Assembly (NCBI RefSeq): GCF_030013595.1
Contig: NZ_CP122768.1
Length of the DNA stretch: 64,000 nt
Strand: one strand, 5' to 3'
From: Escherichia coli
GTDB taxonomy: Bacteria > Pseudomonadota > Gammaproteobacteria > Enterobacterales > Enterobacteriaceae
Part shown: positions 56,001-64,000 of the stretch, in pieces
How positions within the stretch are numbered: the stretch's first letter is position 1
Layout of the letters: each line of letters opens with the position of its first letter
Made by a program: the position numbers

Positions 56001-59000
56001 CGCGTGGCTATCTCGATCAGGCCAAATCGCGCCCTAACCTGACCATTCGTACTCACGCCATGACCGATCACATCATTTTTGACGGCAAACGCGCGGTGGG
56101 CGTCGAGTGGCTGGAAGGCGACAGCACCATTCCGACCCGCGCGGCGGCGAATAAAGAAGTGCTGTTATGTGCAGGCGCGATTGCTTCACCGCAGATCCTG
56201 CAACGCTCCGGCGTCGGCAACGCTGAACTGCTGGCGGAGTTTGATATTCCGCTGGTGCATGAATTACCCGGCGTCGGCGAAAATCTTCAGGATCACCTGG
56301 AGATGTATCTGCAATATGAATGCAAAGAACCGGTTTCCCTCTACCCTGCCCTGCAGTGGTGGAATCAGCCGAAAATCGGTGCGGAGTGGCTGTTTGGCGG
56401 CACCGGCGTTGGTGCCAGCAACCACTTTGAAGCAGGCGGATTTATTCGCAGCCGTGAGGAATTTGCGTGGCCGAATATTCAGTACCATTTCCTGCCAGTG
56501 GCGATTAACTATAACGGCTCGAACGCAGTGAAAGAGCACGGCTTCCAGTGCCACGTCGGATCGATGCGCTCGCCAAGCCGTGGGCATGTGCGGATTAAAT
56601 CCCGCGACCCGCACCAGCATCCAGCGATTCTGTTTAACTACATGTCGCACGAGCAGGACTGGCAGGAGTTCCGCGACGCAATTCGCATCACCCGGGAGAT
56701 CATGCATCAACCCGCGCTGGATCAATACCGTGGCCGCGAAATCAGCCCCGGTGTCGAATGCCAGACGGATGAGCAGCTCGATGAGTTCGTGCGTAACCAC
56801 GCCGAAACCGCCTTCCACCCGTGCGGTACCTGCAAAATGGGTTATGACGAGATGGCAGTGGTTGACGCCGAAGGCCGCGTACACGGGCTGGAAGGCCTGC
56901 GCGTGGTGGATGCGTCAATTATGCCGCAGATTATCACCGGCAATTTGAACGCCACGACGATTATGATTGGCGAGAAAATGGCGGATATGATTCGCGGGAA
57001 GGATGCGTTGCCGAGGAGCACGGCGGGATATTATGTGGCAAATGGGATGCCGGTGAGAGCGAAAAAAATGAGTCGTGATGTGAACTGACTCAGGAACCTA
57101 TCAGATTGAGAGTTACCGTTCTACTATGAGGACCGAATCCTTATATAAAACACTGAGGTAACTCTCATGCTTCATCGTGACAATCTCGCCAGCAAATTCT
57201 AAGCTGACTTGCTCAATCTGGCTGATGAAGGTGCTATGCATACACAGATAAACTACAGATGAAATACCACTCAGCTTAAGAATTACGCCGCTAATGTTCC
57301 TGGCTATGGTTACCTGTTCATTCCCGCTCACGGTTAGCATGTACGAAAAGGGTTCTTGTAACGAGTACAAAAATAAGTCAGACCAAAACCACATGGAGCT
57401 TTAAACACAGCTCGTATAATTTATTAGCAGCGATTTATTTTTACGCTTCTTTAATTAATCATCATGCTTAAATATTTTTTAGCACACGATTATCGCTTCG
57501 CTAACATTTTATTTTACATTCATCATCAATTGATAATAAAAAATTGTTAATAATTTTTTGCAAAAAACAAAAAGTGTTGGAATACTCTCCATCAAATGAA
57601 TGCAAAATAAACAAATTGAGATATACAAAAAGTAAAAACCATTTAAATGAATATTTTTAATTTATGAGCAGAACCCATTAACAATGATTTACTCACGACC
57701 AGAAAAGTAAATAACACCTTGCAATAATATGTATTTATAAATTTATATCATTGATATTAAGCTAATCTTACTTTCTACCCTCCAAATTTATGCAGCAAAA
57801 AAAATAAAAGCAAAATCAATTGGATACACAACAAAGCAATCTCACAGGAAATGATGTTAAATATCTCAAAACTAATAAAAATTACTAAAAAATTAGACGT
57901 AACACACATCCCACACGCCCTGTAGCTCATAGCTTTTATATTTATTTTCTCACATCACTGTAGATAAAAACACGCATTAAAAATGACTTGTAGAAAAGCT
58001 GCACAATAAATAGTTCATATTTAGTCTGTTGCGTAGAACTACTATTCAAAAAATCTTATTAATGAGATAATGAGATTACATCGATAACGTTCTGATGGCA
58101 GGCATACTTATCTGGGTGTGCCTCTTTTTTTTACAACTGTACACGGTGGCGTATGACGAGAAAATATCTCACACAGGATGAAGTCTACAGGCTGATGGAT
58201 GCAGCCCAGAGCATGTCCTTTCCTGAAAGAAATCGCTGTCTAATTATGATGGCTTTCATTCACGGTTTTAGGGCCAGTGAACTTCTTGATTTACGTTTAT
58301 CCGATATTGATGCATCTGGAAAACAACTTAATATTCGGCGTATTAAAAATGGTTTCTCGACAACACATCCTCTTCTTCCTGATGAATATAATTTGATCAA
58401 GTTGTGGCTTAAGCAGAGGAAGTTAATTGAAAACGGAGTTGAAGGAGACTGGCTTTTTCTCTCCCGGAAACGCCGCCCTATCAGCAGACAACATTTTTTT
58501 TCTATCATTCGTGAGGCTGGAAAACGTGCAGGATTAGCTGTAAAAGCACATCCTCATATGTTACGTCATGCCTGTGGTTTTGCTCTGGCTGACAATGGTG
58601 TCGATACCCGACTACTTCAGGATTATCTGGGTCATCGAAATATTCAGCATACTGTCAGATACACAGCCAGTAATGCTGCTCGTTTTAAAGGGGTGTGGAA
58701 AAAAAAGCCTCGTTAAAACAGTACCTTCTGATTCAAAATGTCAGATTCCTACGTTTTCCTCAATTCTTCCATAAAAAAACAGCCCATTCAATTAAATAAA
58801 ACACATAACATGTTGATATTTCTAGCTAAAGTAAAATAATCCCATGATTTGAAATGATTAATCAAAAAGGTCATACCAGTGATTAACTTTCGCTCATATT
58901 GTTAAATAACACAAAATTAAAAACAATAAAAATCAAACAAATTAGATTTATATTCCAAGAAAATTAAATATTCAGGCTATTAAACCAAACCTGACATTTT

Positions 59001-62000: not shown

Positions 62001-64000
62001 CGAGCGGTGACTTGAGTGTTTACAGTGCGGGTTCATTGGATCCTATCAATGAACAAACGGCATTTATTTCTACCGGCAAAGACAGCACTCTAAAAGCCAC
62101 AGGCACAACGGAAGGTGGTCTGTATCAATATGACCTGACACAGGGAGCTGATGGTAACTTTTATTTCGTAAAAAACACGCATAAAGCATCCAACGCCAGC
62201 TCCGTGATTCAGGCAATGGCAGCTGCTCCGGCTAACGTCGCTAATCTGCAGGCTGACACGCTCTCCGCCCGTCAGGATGCTGTCCGTCTGAGCGAAAATG
62301 ACAAGGGTGGCGTATGGATTCAGTACTTTGGCGGTAAACAGAAACATACCACCGCGGGAAATGCATCCTATGACCTGGATGTAAACGGTGTAATGCTGGG
62401 TGGTGATACCCGCTTCATGACTGAAGATGGTAGCTGGCTGGCCGGTGTGGCGATGTCTTCTGCGAAAGGTGACATGACCACCATGCAGAGCAAAGGTGAC
62501 ACTGAAGGTTACAGCTTCCACGCTTACCTGAGCCGCCAGTATAACAACGGTATCTTCATTGATACTGCTGCACAGTTTGGTCACTACAGCAACACGGCAG
62601 ATGTTCGCCTGATGAATGGTGGCGGTACCATCAAAGCTGACTTTAACACCAATGGTTTCGGTGCGATGGTTAAAGGCGGTTACACATGGAAAGACGGTAA
62701 TGGCCTGTTTATTCAGCCATATGCCAAACTGTCTGCGCTGACGCTGGAAGGTGTGGATTATCAGCTCAACGGCGTGGACGTTCATTCTGACAGCTATAAC
62801 TCTGTGCTGGGTGAGGCCGGTACGCGCGTGGGTTATGACTTCGCTGTGGGCAACGCGACCGTTAAACCTTATCTGAATCTGGCCGCACTGAACGAATTCT
62901 CTGATGGCAACAAAGTCCGTCTGGGTGATGAGTCTGTCAATGCCAGCATTGACGGTGCAGCATTCCGCGTGGGTGCAGGTGTACAGGCTGATATCACCAA
63001 AAACATGGGAGCATATGCAAGCCTTGACTACACCAAAGGTGACGACATTGAGAACCCGCTACAGGGTGTAGTTGGTATCAATGTGACCTGGTAAGAATAA
63101 AGCAGTCGGTTCCCCTGTCGACTGTTATACCCCCTGCAGGCAGCATACTGCTGCCTGCAGGCCATAAATATCCAGTATTCATGATGCTGGTTTTTTGCTG
63201 ATATTTAACCCGAACACTCCTGATACAGACTATTAATACAACCCTATCTGCGACAGATTTCATTTTCTGGATATATTATGAATGAACAAATCAAACAGGA
63301 TATCGATCTGATTGAGATTTTATTTTATCTGAAGAAAAAGATTCGTGTTATCCTTTTTATTATAGCTATCTGTATGGCAATGGTGCTGTTGTTTCTGTAT
63401 ATCAATAAAGATAATATAAAAGTGAGTTACAGCCTAAAAATAAACCAGACAACACCTGGCATACTTGTTAGCTGTGATAGCAATAATAACTTTGCCTGTC
63501 AGACCACAATGACTGAAGATGTTATTCAGCGAATTACTACATTTTTTCAGACCAGCCCAGATGTCAAGAACAGAGAAATAAAGCTGGAATGGTCAGGAGA
63601 TAAGAGAGATTTACCAACTGCTGAAGCGGAAATATCTCGCGTGCATGCGTCTATTATCAAATGGTATGCGTCAGAATACCATAATGGCAGGCAAGTTCTT
63701 GATGAGATACAAACGCCTTCAGCAATTAACAGTGAGCTTTATACAAAAATGATATACCTGACCAGGAACTGGTCATTGTATCCGAACGGTGATGGCTGTG
63801 TCACTATAAGCTCACCAGAAATAAAAAATAAATACCCTGCTGCCATTTGCCTGGCTCTGGGATTTTTTCTAAGTATTGTGATTTCTGTAATGTTTTGCCT
63901 TGTCAAAAAAATGGTAGATGAATACCAACAAAACTCTGGGCAGTAATAAACAGCATTCTGACAGAGAGTGCCTGTATAAAACTATAGTGACAATGACCGG

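What the first reader, a model, noticed from the sequence alone, without database searches (positions are those of the whole stretch)
57089..63277. Strain-specific adhesin island between betA and ykgH: recombinase, switch, two LuxR regulators, UpaB-like autotransporter
Seen: about 6.2 kb separates betA from the ykgH-like gene and carries a ~1.06-kb very AT-rich non-coding stretch, a tyrosine recombinase, the inverted-repeat element, two LuxR-type regulator genes and a 765-776-aa autotransporter. Established (from memory): betA and ykgH are adjacent in K-12. Inference: horizontally acquired, probably H-NS-silenced, phase-variable adhesin module. Two tandem LuxR-like genes between a switch and an adhesin suggest a regulatory cascade rather than direct promoter inversion of the adhesin.
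Basis: partly seen in the sequence, partly recalled or inferred. Interest (0 to 1): 0.6.

Follow-up and report, generated by a model that had tools for sequence, protein, structure and literature searches.

The report
Known E. coli island PAI-X (fimX-hyxRAB)

Summary
betA ends at 57088 and ykgH starts at 63278. Compared with K-12, 5,994 bp (57176-63169, 43% GC) are inserted.

The insert is pathogenicity island PAI-X, also called the "UpaB cluster". It carries:
- fimX/ipbA, a tyrosine invertase that is 100% identical to the CFT073 protein;
- the hyxS switch, 246 bp between perfect 16-bp inverted repeats;
- hyxR, a LuxR/GerE regulator;
- hyxA;
- hyxB, which is upaB (crystal structure 6BEA).

The island is 97% identical to CFT073 and is present in 1830 of 5426 complete E. 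coli genomes, so it is not strain-specific.

I tested inversion directly. 1780 genomes carry the window's orientation and 15 carry exactly the predicted flipped form.

HyxA has no Pfam or NCBIfam match. Its predicted fold is a NarL/FixJ-type regulator (receiver-like domain plus LuxR-type helix-turn-helix) that lacks the phospho-acceptor aspartate.

Published experiments already show that FimX flips hyxS to control hyxR, and that AutA and AutR (inferred to be HyxR and HyxA) activate and antagonise upaB. H-NS silencing remains untested, and which orientation is ON could not be resolved.

One side finding: a conserved 46-codon membrane-peptide ORF lies between hyxR and hyxA and is absent from the four-gene descriptions of the island.

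The parts
57089..57175 (.). Core betA-ykgH intergenic DNA, left part; not part of the island.
   Evidence: It aligns with K-12 up to 57175. Island-free genomes match query positions 3-87.
57176..63169 (.). PAI-X / 'UpaB cluster': 5994 bp inserted relative to K-12, 43.2% GC.
   Evidence: Junction alignments, GC content, RefSeq gene names in a 99.9%-identical genome, and 97.0% identity to CFT073 across the island and its flanks, 57000-63400.
57395..58152 (.). AT-rich (28.5% GC) region upstream of fimX with no annotated gene; presumed regulatory region.
   Evidence: Composition. Only short ORFs are present. No Rfam hit. No significant similarity to the fim intergenic regions.
58100..58133 (+). 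Terminator-like hairpin (10-bp stem) followed by T8, about 20 nt upstream of the fimX ATG.
   Evidence: Consensus scan; function not tested.
58153..58716 (+). fimX (= ipbA = hbiF), a Fim-family tyrosine DNA invertase of 187 aa.
   Evidence: NF007370 at 251.6 bits against a cut-off of 221. RefSeq name. 187/187 identical to CFT073. 56% identical to FimB and 53% to FimE. R40/H135/R138/Y170 align with FimB R47/H141/R144/Y176.
58729..58744 (.). hyxS left inverted-repeat core, TGATTCAAAATGTCAG.
   Evidence: The literature gives 16-bp repeats for hyxS (PMC6083910). Related repeats occur in diverged modules L008 and L009.
58745..58990 (.). hyxS invertible segment, 246 bp, 24.8% GC. The window has the majority orientation, the same as the CFT073 reference.
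   Evidence: 1780 genomes share this orientation and 15 carry the exact inverse. L005 has 3 mismatches in 551 nt to my inverted construct and 174 to the native one. CFT073 has the native orientation.
58991..59006 (.). hyxS right inverted-repeat core, CTGACATTTTGAATCA. It lies inside a longer palindrome, 58984-59022.
   Evidence: (I1, I5). As RNA the palindrome folds at -25.8 kcal/mol, z = -5.05.
59046..59840 (+). hyxR, a LuxR/GerE-type regulator of 264 aa. Inferred to be AutA (APECO1-1682).
   Evidence: Pfam GerE at residues 135-181, E 3.9e-6. RefSeq name. 257/264 identical to CFT073. Literature.
59837..59977 (+). Conserved 46-codon ORF encoding a basic N-terminus and a C-terminal hydrophobic helix. 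Its ATG overlaps the hyxR stop codon (ATGA). It is unnamed and missing from most annotations.
   Evidence: It is present upstream of hyxA homologues in 6 of 8 distinct modules. dN/dS is 0.11-0.36 over the last 30 codons. Some genomes call it 'hypothetical'.
59994..60755 (+). hyxA, 253 aa. Inferred to be AutR (APECO1-1683). The predicted fold is a pseudo-receiver plus a LuxR-type helix-turn-helix.
   Evidence: No Pfam or NCBIfam hit. Only 28 representatives among 1.84 billion proteins. AlphaFold2 mean pLDDT 77.9. Foldseek matches FixJ, StyR, VraR and RcsB, E down to 1.7e-5.
60797..63094 (+). hyxB = upaB, a classical autotransporter adhesin of 765 aa.
   Evidence: TIGR01414 beta-barrel, E 5.2e-69. 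PDB 6BEA 'UpaB', E 2.8e-247 over residues 26-489. 714/765 identical to CFT073.
63170..63277 (.). Core intergenic DNA, right part, upstream of ykgH.
   Evidence: Alignment with K-12 resumes at about 63168.

Best explanation
This is pathogenicity island PAI-X, also published as the 'UpaB cluster' or GI-4 of APEC O1. It is a roughly 6-kb accessory module inserted between betA and ykgH.

**How it works**
- The Fim-family tyrosine recombinase FimX (IpbA/HbiF) inverts the adjacent 246-bp hyxS element at its 16-bp inverted repeats. This switches transcription of the LuxR-type regulator gene hyxR between two heritable states.
- HyxR (inferred to be AutA) and HyxA (inferred to be AutR) then act on the promoter of the last gene, upaB/hyxB. 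HyxR activates it and HyxA cancels that activation. UpaB is a fibronectin- and glycosaminoglycan-binding autotransporter adhesin.
- The two regulators also act on unlinked genes: hmpA and nitrosative stress, O-antigen chain length and serum resistance, K1 capsule, and the acid fitness island.
- FimX also cross-acts on the fimS and ipuS switches elsewhere in the genome.

**What is shown and what is inferred**
- Shown here: the identity of the island, its boundaries, an intact recombinase, natural inversion at the predicted repeats, and the predicted NarL-like fold of HyxA.
- Taken from papers: FimX specificity for hyxS, the phenotypes of HyxR, and the effects of AutA and AutR on upaB.
- Inferred: that hyxS orientation therefore makes UpaB phase-variable; that the window's orientation is the published OFF state; and the mapping AutA = HyxR, AutR = HyxA.
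For: **Identity and position**
- A 99.9%-identical genome is annotated ipbA-hyxR-hyxA-hyxB.
- CFT073 has the same genes in the same place. Identity is 97.0% across the island and its flanks (57000-63400), and FimX is 187/187 identical.
- K-12 lacks the island.

**Switch**
- The 16-bp perfect repeats match the published hyxS description.
- 1780 genomes carry the window's orientation and 15 carry the exact inverted form.
- The repeat motif is conserved in diverged modules while the interior of the switch diverges.

**Recombinase**
- The NCBIfam score is above the cut-off, and the RHRY residues align with those of FimB.

**Regulators**
- HyxR has a GerE domain. HyxA's predicted fold matches full-length NarL/FixJ regulators.

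**Adhesin**
- 6BEA and TIGR01414 matches. Fibronectin and glycosaminoglycan binding is reported in PMC6488583.

**Literature**
- PAI-X consists of fimX plus hyxRAB, and hyxB is upaB (PMC3789825).
- Only FimX flips hyxS (PMC6083910; PMC6458436).
- AutA and AutR bind and regulate the upaB promoter (PMC4844996).
- hyxR 'invertase inversion' was selected under phage pressure (PMC12361893).
Against: - I could not read the primary hyxS paper (Bateman & Seed 2012), so ON and OFF are not assigned. The best sigma-70-like match inside the element (58813-58840, 10 of 12 positions) points toward hyxR in the window's orientation. That orientation is the majority one, and in CFT073 it is presumably the published 'OFF' state. 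This is unresolved.
- No paper I read links hyxS orientation to UpaB levels.
- The AutA/AutR paper never mentions hyxR or fimX. The mapping rests on locus-tag order and on the relative similarity of each protein to GerE.
- The reported separate transcription units sit awkwardly with the gene gaps: a 4-nt ATGA overlap, then 16 nt, then 41 nt. Other papers call hyxRAB an operon.
Confidence: 0.93

Rival explanations
1. Direct (operon) control. The hyxS promoter drives one transcript, hyxR - 46-codon ORF - hyxA - upaB. The adhesin is then phase-variable by read-through, not only through a regulator cascade. This model can coexist with the cascade.
For: - The genes are packed tightly: a 4-nt ATGA overlap between hyxR and the small ORF, 16 nt to hyxA, and 41 nt to upaB.
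- No terminator-like site lies at any gene junction.
- Two papers write 'hyxRAB operon'.
- In the homologous Salmonella T1 locus, the switch directly drives cargo that lies downstream of STM0717-0718.
Against: - RT-PCR across the three intergenic regions detected no co-transcription in APEC DE205B.
- A separate upaB promoter fragment is bound by AutA and AutR and responds to them in vitro (PMC4844996).
Confidence: 0.35
2. The module is mainly a phase-variable global regulator cassette, and the adhesin is interchangeable cargo. Its selected function would be to switch envelope and stress regulons (O-antigen length, capsule, hmpA, acid fitness island, phage susceptibility) rather than adhesion.
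For: - hyxR and hyxA mutants alter O-antigen chain length and serum resistance.
- 223 genes change in autA and autR mutants.
- hyxR-switch inversion was selected as transient phage resistance.
- The same invertase, switch, small ORF and HyxA-like cassette sits in front of a polysaccharide locus (L009) and, in other organisms, in front of autotransporter-like genes (L008, L013).
Against: - upaB is the most strongly affected single gene in the autR mutant, at 36.9-fold.
- UpaB contributes to bladder colonisation according to reviews of Allsopp 2012.
- The four genes travel together in about a third of E. coli genomes.
Confidence: 0.3
3. The island is transcriptionally silenced by H-NS under ordinary conditions.
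For: Two very AT-rich tracts flank fimX: 28.5% GC over 758 bp upstream, and 24.8% GC inside hyxS. Such tracts are typical H-NS targets; this is general knowledge and was not tested here.
Against: - All four genes were transcribed at about the level of dnaE in APEC.
- hyxR and hyxA insertions give phenotypes in wild-type EC958.
- A 2026 transcriptome reports PAI-X expressed and up-regulated in lysogens.
- I found no H-NS binding data for this locus.
Confidence: 0.3
4. The repeats are a chance palindrome or terminator, and the recombinase is a defunct phage-integrase remnant, as the APEC paper labelled it. On this view nothing inverts.
For: The APEC paper annotated the gene as a 'putative phage integrase'. 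The right repeat forms a strong hairpin followed by UUUUGU.
Against: - 15 independent assemblies carry the exact inverted form.
- The recombinase scores above the invertase family cut-off with an intact RHRY tetrad.
- Published over-expression experiments detect inversion at hyxS.
Confidence: 0.01

Closest known systems
PAI-X (fimX-hyxS-hyxRAB) of UPEC UTI89, CFT073 and EC958; the same island is called the 'UpaB cluster' / GI-4 in APEC O1 and DE205B
   Same: Same chromosomal site (betA-ykgH), same gene order, and 97% nucleotide identity to CFT073. FimX is identical, and the 16-bp hyxS repeats are the same.
   Different: Only allelic differences: UpaB is 93% identical to the CFT073 protein, HyxR 257/264 and HyxA 248/253. 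This allele is closest (99.9%) to a pig faecal isolate.
The fim switch (fimB/fimE-fimS-fimA) of E. coli
   Same: A Fim-family tyrosine invertase lies next to an AT-rich invertible promoter element of about 0.3 kb. FimX is 56% identical to FimB and 53% to FimE. FimX also acts on fimS.
   Different: - fimS has 9-bp repeats and hyxS has 16-bp repeats, with little sequence similarity between them.
- The switched gene is a regulator, not a structural fimbrial operon.
- There is a single recombinase rather than a pair.
ipuA/ipuB-ipuS-ipuR-upaE of CFT073
   Same: Same logic: Fim-type invertase, then switch, then LuxR-type regulator, then autotransporter adhesin (PMC6083910).
   Different: - It sits on a different island and has 7-bp repeats.
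- It has two recombinases and one regulator.
- ipuR-upaE is described as a putative two-gene operon driven by the switch, whereas here two regulators and a small ORF precede the adhesin.
Salmonella T1-antigen locus, STM0716-STM0726
   Same: STM0716 is 72% identical to FimX, the repeat cores are related or identical, and STM0718 is 39% identical to HyxA (PMC11294581). My locus L009 shows the same layout, with an invertase 71% identical to FimX and a HyxA-like protein at 37%, and it also carries the small membrane ORF.
   Different: - The cargo is a polysaccharide biosynthesis and ABC-transporter cluster rather than an autotransporter.
- L009 has no HyxR homologue.
- That switch was shown to drive the cargo directly.
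NarL/FixJ-family response regulators (FixJ, RcsB, VraR, VpsT)
   Same: HyxA's predicted fold aligns over 200-229 columns with full-length family members. HyxR has the GerE helix-turn-helix.
   Different: - HyxA gives no sequence-profile match.
- HyxA and its relatives have no acidic phospho-acceptor residue after beta-3; they carry S/x-G-R-P there.
- No cognate kinase gene lies in the island.

Membership tests
PAI-X (fimX-hyxRAB island) | Inserted between the core genes betA and ykgH. | tested here: met
   Window ORFs. K-12 empty site and junction alignments. Same site in CFT073 and as described for APEC.
PAI-X (fimX-hyxRAB island) | Gene content and order fimX, hyxR, hyxA, hyxB, with high identity to the reference islands. 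| tested here: met
   RefSeq names in a 99.9%-identical genome. 97.0% nucleotide identity to CFT073 over 57000-63400, with proteins 93-100% identical.
Fim-family tyrosine DNA invertases (FimB/FimE/FimX) | Protein scores above the curated family cut-off. | tested here: met
   NF007370 at 251.6 bits against a cut-off of 221; NF007371 at 233.2 against 222.
Fim-family tyrosine DNA invertases (FimB/FimE/FimX) | Catalytic R-H-R-Y tetrad present. | tested here: met
   R40, H135, R138 and Y170 align with FimB R47, H141, R144 and Y176. The FimB residue numbers are from my own knowledge; RHRY is mentioned in PMC6083910.
Fim-family tyrosine DNA invertases (FimB/FimE/FimX) | Catalyses inversion of a linked element. 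| tested here: met
   Indirect evidence: both orientations occur among assemblies, 1780 against 15, and the break lies exactly at the repeats. The enzyme-substrate assignment comes from the literature only.
Invertible promoter switches (fimS type) | Inverted repeats bracket a short segment next to the recombinase gene. | tested here: met
   16-bp perfect cores 246 bp apart, starting 12 bp after the fimX stop codon.
Invertible promoter switches (fimS type) | A promoter inside the element reads into the target gene in only one orientation. | tested here: inconclusive
   Only one consensus match lies in the element (58813-58840, + strand, 10 of 12), and promoter-like hits in the region are no more frequent than in shuffles (6 found, 8.7 expected). 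The primary paper is not held.
LuxR/GerE-type HTH regulators | HyxR: GerE helix-turn-helix domain detectable by profile. | tested here: met
   PF00196 at residues 135-181, E 3.9e-6. Weak NCBIfam hits to FimZ, RcsB, BglJ and EcpR over the same stretch, all far below their cut-offs.
LuxR/GerE-type HTH regulators | HyxA: GerE helix-turn-helix domain detectable by profile. | tested here: not met
   No Pfam hit even at E <= 10 for HyxA, and no family at E <= 0.001 for any of 8 family members. No NCBIfam hit. No PDB sequence hit. No BLASTP similarity to HyxR.
LuxR/GerE-type HTH regulators | HyxA: fold of a NarL/FixJ-type regulator, meaning a receiver-like (beta-alpha)5 domain plus a C-terminal four-helix HTH. 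| tested here: met
   AlphaFold2 model with mean pLDDT 77.9 and pTM 0.72; the C-terminal helices score above 90. Foldseek top hits are FixJ, StyR, VraR, RcsB, ChrA and DesR, E 1.7e-5 to 1e-3, probability 1.00. TM-scores are low (0.3-0.5) because the domain orientation differs. This is a prediction, not a solved structure.
Two-component response regulators (phosphorylatable) | Conserved phospho-acceptor Asp after beta-3 and an acidic pair after beta-1 in HyxA. | tested here: not met
   The family alignment shows '...VVISAGRP' after beta-3 and 'FCPSG' after beta-1, and no invariant acidic residue at either position. No kinase gene lies in the island.
Classical (type Va) autotransporters / UpaB | C-terminal beta-barrel translocator plus an N-terminal passenger matching UpaB. 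| tested here: met
   TIGR01414 at residues 377-776 of the 776-aa TTG-start ORF, E 5.2e-69. PDB 6BEA 'UpaB' at residues 26-489 of the 765-aa protein, E 2.8e-247. BrkA barrel (3QQ2) at residues 487-755.
H-NS-silenced horizontally acquired islands | H-NS occupancy and derepression in an hns mutant. | not testable with these tools
   Only the AT-richness could be measured. No data for this locus turned up in the paper search.

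The most novel reading that the evidence does not exclude
PAI-X may have a fifth functional gene that the literature overlooks. It is a 46-aa tail-anchored membrane peptide (window 59837-59977) that is translationally coupled to hyxR through an ATGA overlap. The same ORF lies immediately upstream of hyxA homologues in diverged modules, including a locus with the layout of the Salmonella T1-antigen locus.

Both regulators lack a partner kinase, and HyxA lacks a phospho-acceptor Asp. 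The peptide could therefore be the missing input or anchoring partner that sets the balance between HyxR and HyxA. That would add a membrane-level signal on top of the DNA switch.
Probability: 0.25. Interest if true: 0.4.

Novelty: already known. Interest (0 to 1): 0.12.

Why it matters
As a discovery it matters little. The island, its switch, its regulators and the crystal structure of its adhesin have all been published since 2008-2019.

It is still useful in three ways.
- It shows that the first-stage reader can recover a real phase-variation module from raw sequence.
- The census of 5426 complete genomes gives an independent, sequence-only confirmation that hyxS inverts exactly at its 16-bp repeats, with about 99% of assemblies in one orientation.
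- It brings together two literatures that, in the papers I could read, do not cite each other: HyxR/HyxA in UPEC and AutA/AutR in APEC.

The open questions are modest. Is UpaB itself phase-variable? Is hyxRAB an operon or three separate units? Does the conserved 46-codon ORF encode a functional partner of these kinase-less regulators?

Tried and rejected
- **Rfam:** a scan of 56900-63400 at E <= 1 found nothing. There is no known sRNA or riboswitch in the AT-rich tract or in the hyxR leader.
- **AT-rich tract and hyxS against the fim regions:** comparison with the K-12 nanC-fimB, fimB-fimE and fimE-fimA intergenic regions gave only chance-level matches, E >= 0.02. There is no evidence that the fimX upstream region is homologous to the fimB regulatory region.
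- **93-aa ORF on the minus strand (57113-57394):** it has no family hit, it spans the core/island junction, and it is not annotated in the closest genomes. I treat it as spurious.
- **Possible LuxR box:** the tandem palindrome CTGTACAG-C-CTGTACAG (59945-59961) looked like a binding site. I rejected this because it lies inside the conserved small ORF, where it encodes LYSLYS, and it is not palindromic in the diverged module L008.
- **HyxA by sequence methods:** NCBIfam, Pfam on 8 family members, a PDB profile search and BLASTP against HyxR were all negative. Only the predicted fold was informative.
- **ON/OFF assignment:** Bateman & Seed 2012, Bateman 2013, Allsopp 2012 and the Bio-protocol on promoter orientation are not held. 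The promoter scan is not decisive.
- **H-NS evidence:** a paper search for upaB + H-NS + upaC returned nothing specific to this locus.
- **Not run:** I did not use the metagenome or genome-collection scans, because the identity was already settled by the E. coli genome collection.

Full report

Yes. betA ends at 57088 and the ykgH homologue starts at 63278, leaving 6189 bp between them.

Aligning the window with K-12 shows that shared sequence stops after 57175 and resumes at about 63168-63170. The extra DNA is therefore 5994 bp (57176-63169). The junction has only a 2-nt 'AT' ambiguity and no target-site duplication.

The insert is 43.2% GC, against 51.2% for the whole window and 57.6% for betA. 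The non-coding stretch upstream of the recombinase is 1064 bp. It consists of 87 bp of core DNA, about 220 bp at 42-47% GC, and a 758-bp core at 28.5% GC.

On the + strand, in order, the insert carries:
- a 187-aa recombinase gene (58153-58716);
- perfect 16-bp inverted repeats (58729-58744 and 58991-59006) enclosing 246 bp at 25% GC;
- a 264-aa gene (59046-59840);
- a 253-aa gene (59994-60755);
- an autotransporter gene ending at 63094.

**2. What is it?**

A megablast search against 5426 complete E. coli genomes finds at least 80% of the interval in 1830 of them. The best hit is 99.9% identical, and RefSeq annotates it as ipbA ('also known as HbiF and FimX'), hyxR, hyxA and hyxB.

[quoted passage not shown] Identity is 97.0% across the island and its flanks (57000-63400). 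FimX is 187/187 identical, HyxR 257/264, HyxA 248/253 and HyxB 714/765.

This is pathogenicity island PAI-X. Phan et al. [quoted passage not shown] Zhuge et al. 2016 describe the same island as the 'UpaB cluster ... inserted between betA and ykgH', with a G+C content of 43.08% (PMC4844996).

It is therefore a common accessory island, not a strain-specific one.

**3. The parts, tested one by one**

*Recombinase.*
- It exceeds the curated cut-off of the NCBIfam 'tyrosine-type DNA invertase' subfamily, at 251.6 bits against 221.
- It is 56% identical to FimB and 53% to FimE.
- It keeps the R-H-R-Y residues in alignment with FimB.

*Switch.*
- The 16-bp repeat length matches the published description of hyxS (PMC6083910).
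- I tested inversion directly. A 551-nt query in the window's orientation is matched end to end in 1780 genomes.
- A synthetic query in which only 58745-58990 is reverse-complemented is matched end to end, in a single alignment piece, in 15 genomes.
- One of those 15 is strain AVS0744. It differs from the inverted construct at 3 of 551 positions and from the native sequence at 174.
- So both states exist in nature and the break lies at the predicted repeats. About 99% of assemblies, including CFT073, share the window's orientation.
- In a dog urinary isolate the element sits in the inverted state and carries an IS3 insertion.
- Diverged versions of the module keep related repeats while the interior of the switch diverges. 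L008 has TGGTTCAAAATGTCAT and CTGACATTTTGAACCA. L009 has TGATTCAAAAAGTTAA and its inverse.

*Regulators.*
- HyxR has a significant GerE/LuxR helix-turn-helix at residues 135-181, E 3.9e-6.
- HyxA has no Pfam, NCBIfam or PDB sequence match and no detectable similarity to HyxR.
- An exhaustive search of 1.84 billion cluster representatives found only 28 relatives of HyxA.
- I built an 8-sequence alignment of full-length relatives with 26-52% identity to HyxA. AlphaFold2 on this alignment gives a model with mean pLDDT 77.9. It has an N-terminal (beta-alpha)5 domain and a C-terminal helical bundle with pLDDT above 90.
- Foldseek aligns 200-229 columns of the model with full-length NarL/FixJ-family regulators (FixJ, StyR, VraR, RcsB, ChrA, DesR, VpsT), with E down to 1.7e-5 and probability 1.00.
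- The positions that carry the acidic pocket and the phospho-acceptor Asp in true receivers are 'FCPSG' and 'SAGRP' in HyxA, and they are not acidic in any relative.
HyxA looks like a pseudo-receiver.

*Adhesin.*
- The C-terminus matches the autotransporter beta-barrel model, E 5.2e-69.
- Residues 26-489 match the crystal structure of UpaB, PDB 6BEA, at E 2.8e-247.
- UpaB binds fibronectin and glycosaminoglycans (PMC6488583).
- The ATG at 60797 gives 765 aa. It is the start RefSeq uses and is preferable to the upstream TTG.

**4. How it works**

The following steps are published.
- FimX, and only FimX, inverts hyxS, and inversion regulates hyxR (PMC6083910; PMC6458436; PMC8777976).
- HyxR represses the nitrosative-stress response through hmpA and affects survival in macrophages.
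- hyxR and hyxA mutants change O-antigen chain length and serum resistance.
- In APEC, AutA (APECO1-1682) activates upaB. AutR (APECO1-1683) cancels that activation: an autR deletion raises upaB 36.9-fold, and only when autA is present. Both proteins shift the upaB promoter fragment in gel-shift assays.
- A hyxR 'invertase inversion' was recovered as transient phage resistance (PMC12361893).

The following steps are my inference.
- AutA is HyxR and AutR is HyxA. The integrase is APECO1-1681 and lies at the betA end of a collinear four-gene cluster, and APECO1-1682 has the better match to GerE. The APEC paper mentions neither hyxR nor fimX.
- By combining the two literatures, hyxS orientation should feed through HyxR and HyxA to UpaB. 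No paper I could read measured UpaB as a function of hyxS state.

**5. What remains uncertain**

*ON or OFF.* The primary papers are not in the library.
- CFT073 derivatives lacking all five recombinases were described as 'hyxS locked OFF', and the CFT073 reference has the window's orientation. The window is therefore probably in the published OFF state.
- However, the only strong sigma-70-like match in the element (58813-58840, TTGATA-16-AATAAT) faces hyxR in this orientation.
- Promoter-like hits here are no commoner than in shuffled sequence.
- I leave the assignment unresolved.

*Operon or separate units.*
- Zhuge et al. detected no co-transcription across the intergenic regions.
- The gaps are very short: an ATGA overlap, then 16 nt, then 41 nt. 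No terminator-like site lies at a gene junction.
- Other authors write 'hyxRAB operon'.
- In the homologous Salmonella T1-antigen locus, the switch directly drives cargo lying beyond STM0717-0718.
- Direct read-through is a live rival, or an additional mechanism.

*H-NS.*
- Only the AT-richness supports it.
- Expression at about the level of dnaE and mutant phenotypes in wild-type strains argue against full silencing.

**6. Side finding: a conserved small ORF**

The 153-bp 'intergenic' region between hyxR and hyxA contains a 46-codon ORF (59837-59977). Its ATG overlaps the hyxR stop codon. It encodes MTQQRCYYPPLRRIRTRYSVGAKIFLLLWAAGLGGTLYSLYSVLAY, which has a basic N-terminus and a C-terminal hydrophobic helix.

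I fetched the genomic context of seven HyxA relatives.
- These, together with the window, give eight distinct modules. L015 and L016 count as one, and L010-L012 as one.
- An ORF with the motif R-Y-S/T-x-G-x-K/R-x-F followed by a hydrophobic helix ends just upstream of the hyxA homologue in six of the eight. One of the six is L009, which has the layout of the Salmonella T1 locus.
- Over the last 30 codons, pairwise dN/dS is 0.11-0.36 with saturated dS, and all five copies compared end with TGA in register.

Gene callers often predict this ORF as 'hypothetical protein'. The exact sequence occurs on at least 1000 contigs, and RefSeq annotates it in some genomes. It is absent from the annotation of CFT073 and of the closest genome. 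It is also absent from the four-gene descriptions of PAI-X that I could read.

**7. Comparison and verdict**

The locus is a member of PAI-X, not merely similar to it. Every defining feature I could test was met.

It works like the fim and ipuS switches: a Fim-type invertase sits next to an AT-rich invertible element. As with ipuS-ipuR-upaE, a LuxR-type regulator is placed between the switch and an autotransporter.

The same regulatory cassette is joined to a polysaccharide locus in Salmonella. That link is also already published.

Novelty is 'already known' and interest is low. Its interpretation is largely right, apart from 'strain-specific', the untested H-NS claim, and the unproven step from the switch to the adhesin.

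Noticed in passing
window 59837-59977 (+): A conserved 46-codon ORF lies between hyxR and hyxA, with an ATGA overlap on the hyxR stop codon. It encodes a basic N-terminus and a C-terminal hydrophobic helix. It is present upstream of hyxA homologues in 6 of 8 distinct modules, including the Salmonella-T1-like locus L009. dN/dS is 0.11-0.36. It is annotated as 'hypothetical' in some genomes, is absent from the CFT073 annotation, and is missing from the four-gene descriptions of PAI-X.
   Followed up: yes
window 58984-59022 (+): The right hyxS repeat is part of a near-perfect 19+19-nt palindrome. As RNA it forms a 15-bp stem (-25.8 kcal/mol, z = -5.05) followed by UUUUGU, 24 nt upstream of the hyxR ATG. 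Its 12-bp core persists in both switch orientations. It could attenuate transcription into hyxR, or it could simply reflect the dyad symmetry of the recombination site. L008 keeps a shorter palindrome at the same place.
   Followed up: partly
window 57066-57088 (3' end of betA): betA has a run of seven A where K-12 has six. The frame shifts past the K-12 stop codon and adds six residues (…[10 protein letters not shown]). The gene is 1689 nt here and in the 99.9%-identical genome, against 1671 nt in K-12 and CFT073.
   Followed up: partly
L003 (NZ_CP115320.1, dog urine isolate) 3001-4600: An IS3-family element is inserted inside hyxS, and the element sits in the inverted orientation. This is a naturally disrupted and probably locked switch.
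   Followed up: partly
window 58100-58133 (+): A terminator-like hairpin (10-bp stem) with a T8 tail lies about 20 nt upstream of the fimX start codon. It may insulate fimX from betA read-through, or it may end an unannotated transcript from the AT-rich tract.
   Followed up: no
L015/L016 6001-7207 (metagenome contigs; L015 carries Rep3- and ParA-like genes, L016 carries IS and toxin-antitoxin genes): A HyxR-like gene and a HyxA-like gene (42% identical to HyxA) occur with no called invertase gene nearby (no Phage_integrase family hit) and without the small ORF. They are followed by a CaiF/GrlA-family regulator gene. The regulator pair therefore also travels outside the switch context.
   Followed up: no
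literature (PMC4844996 compared with PMC3789825 and PMC6083910): The same two genes carry two unlinked names: AutA/AutR in APEC and HyxR/HyxA in UPEC. The APEC paper does not mention hyxR or fimX and calls fimX a 'putative phage integrase'.
   Followed up: partly
one search hits H10-H12 (O157:H7 strains; strain XH987): There are variant forms of the island. In O157:H7 genomes the autotransporter is annotated as two pieces (83% coverage), and in XH987 about half the island is missing.
   Followed up: no
window 57113-57394 (-): A 93-aa ORF spans the junction between core DNA and the island. It has no family match and no annotation in the closest genomes, so it is probably spurious.
   Followed up: partly
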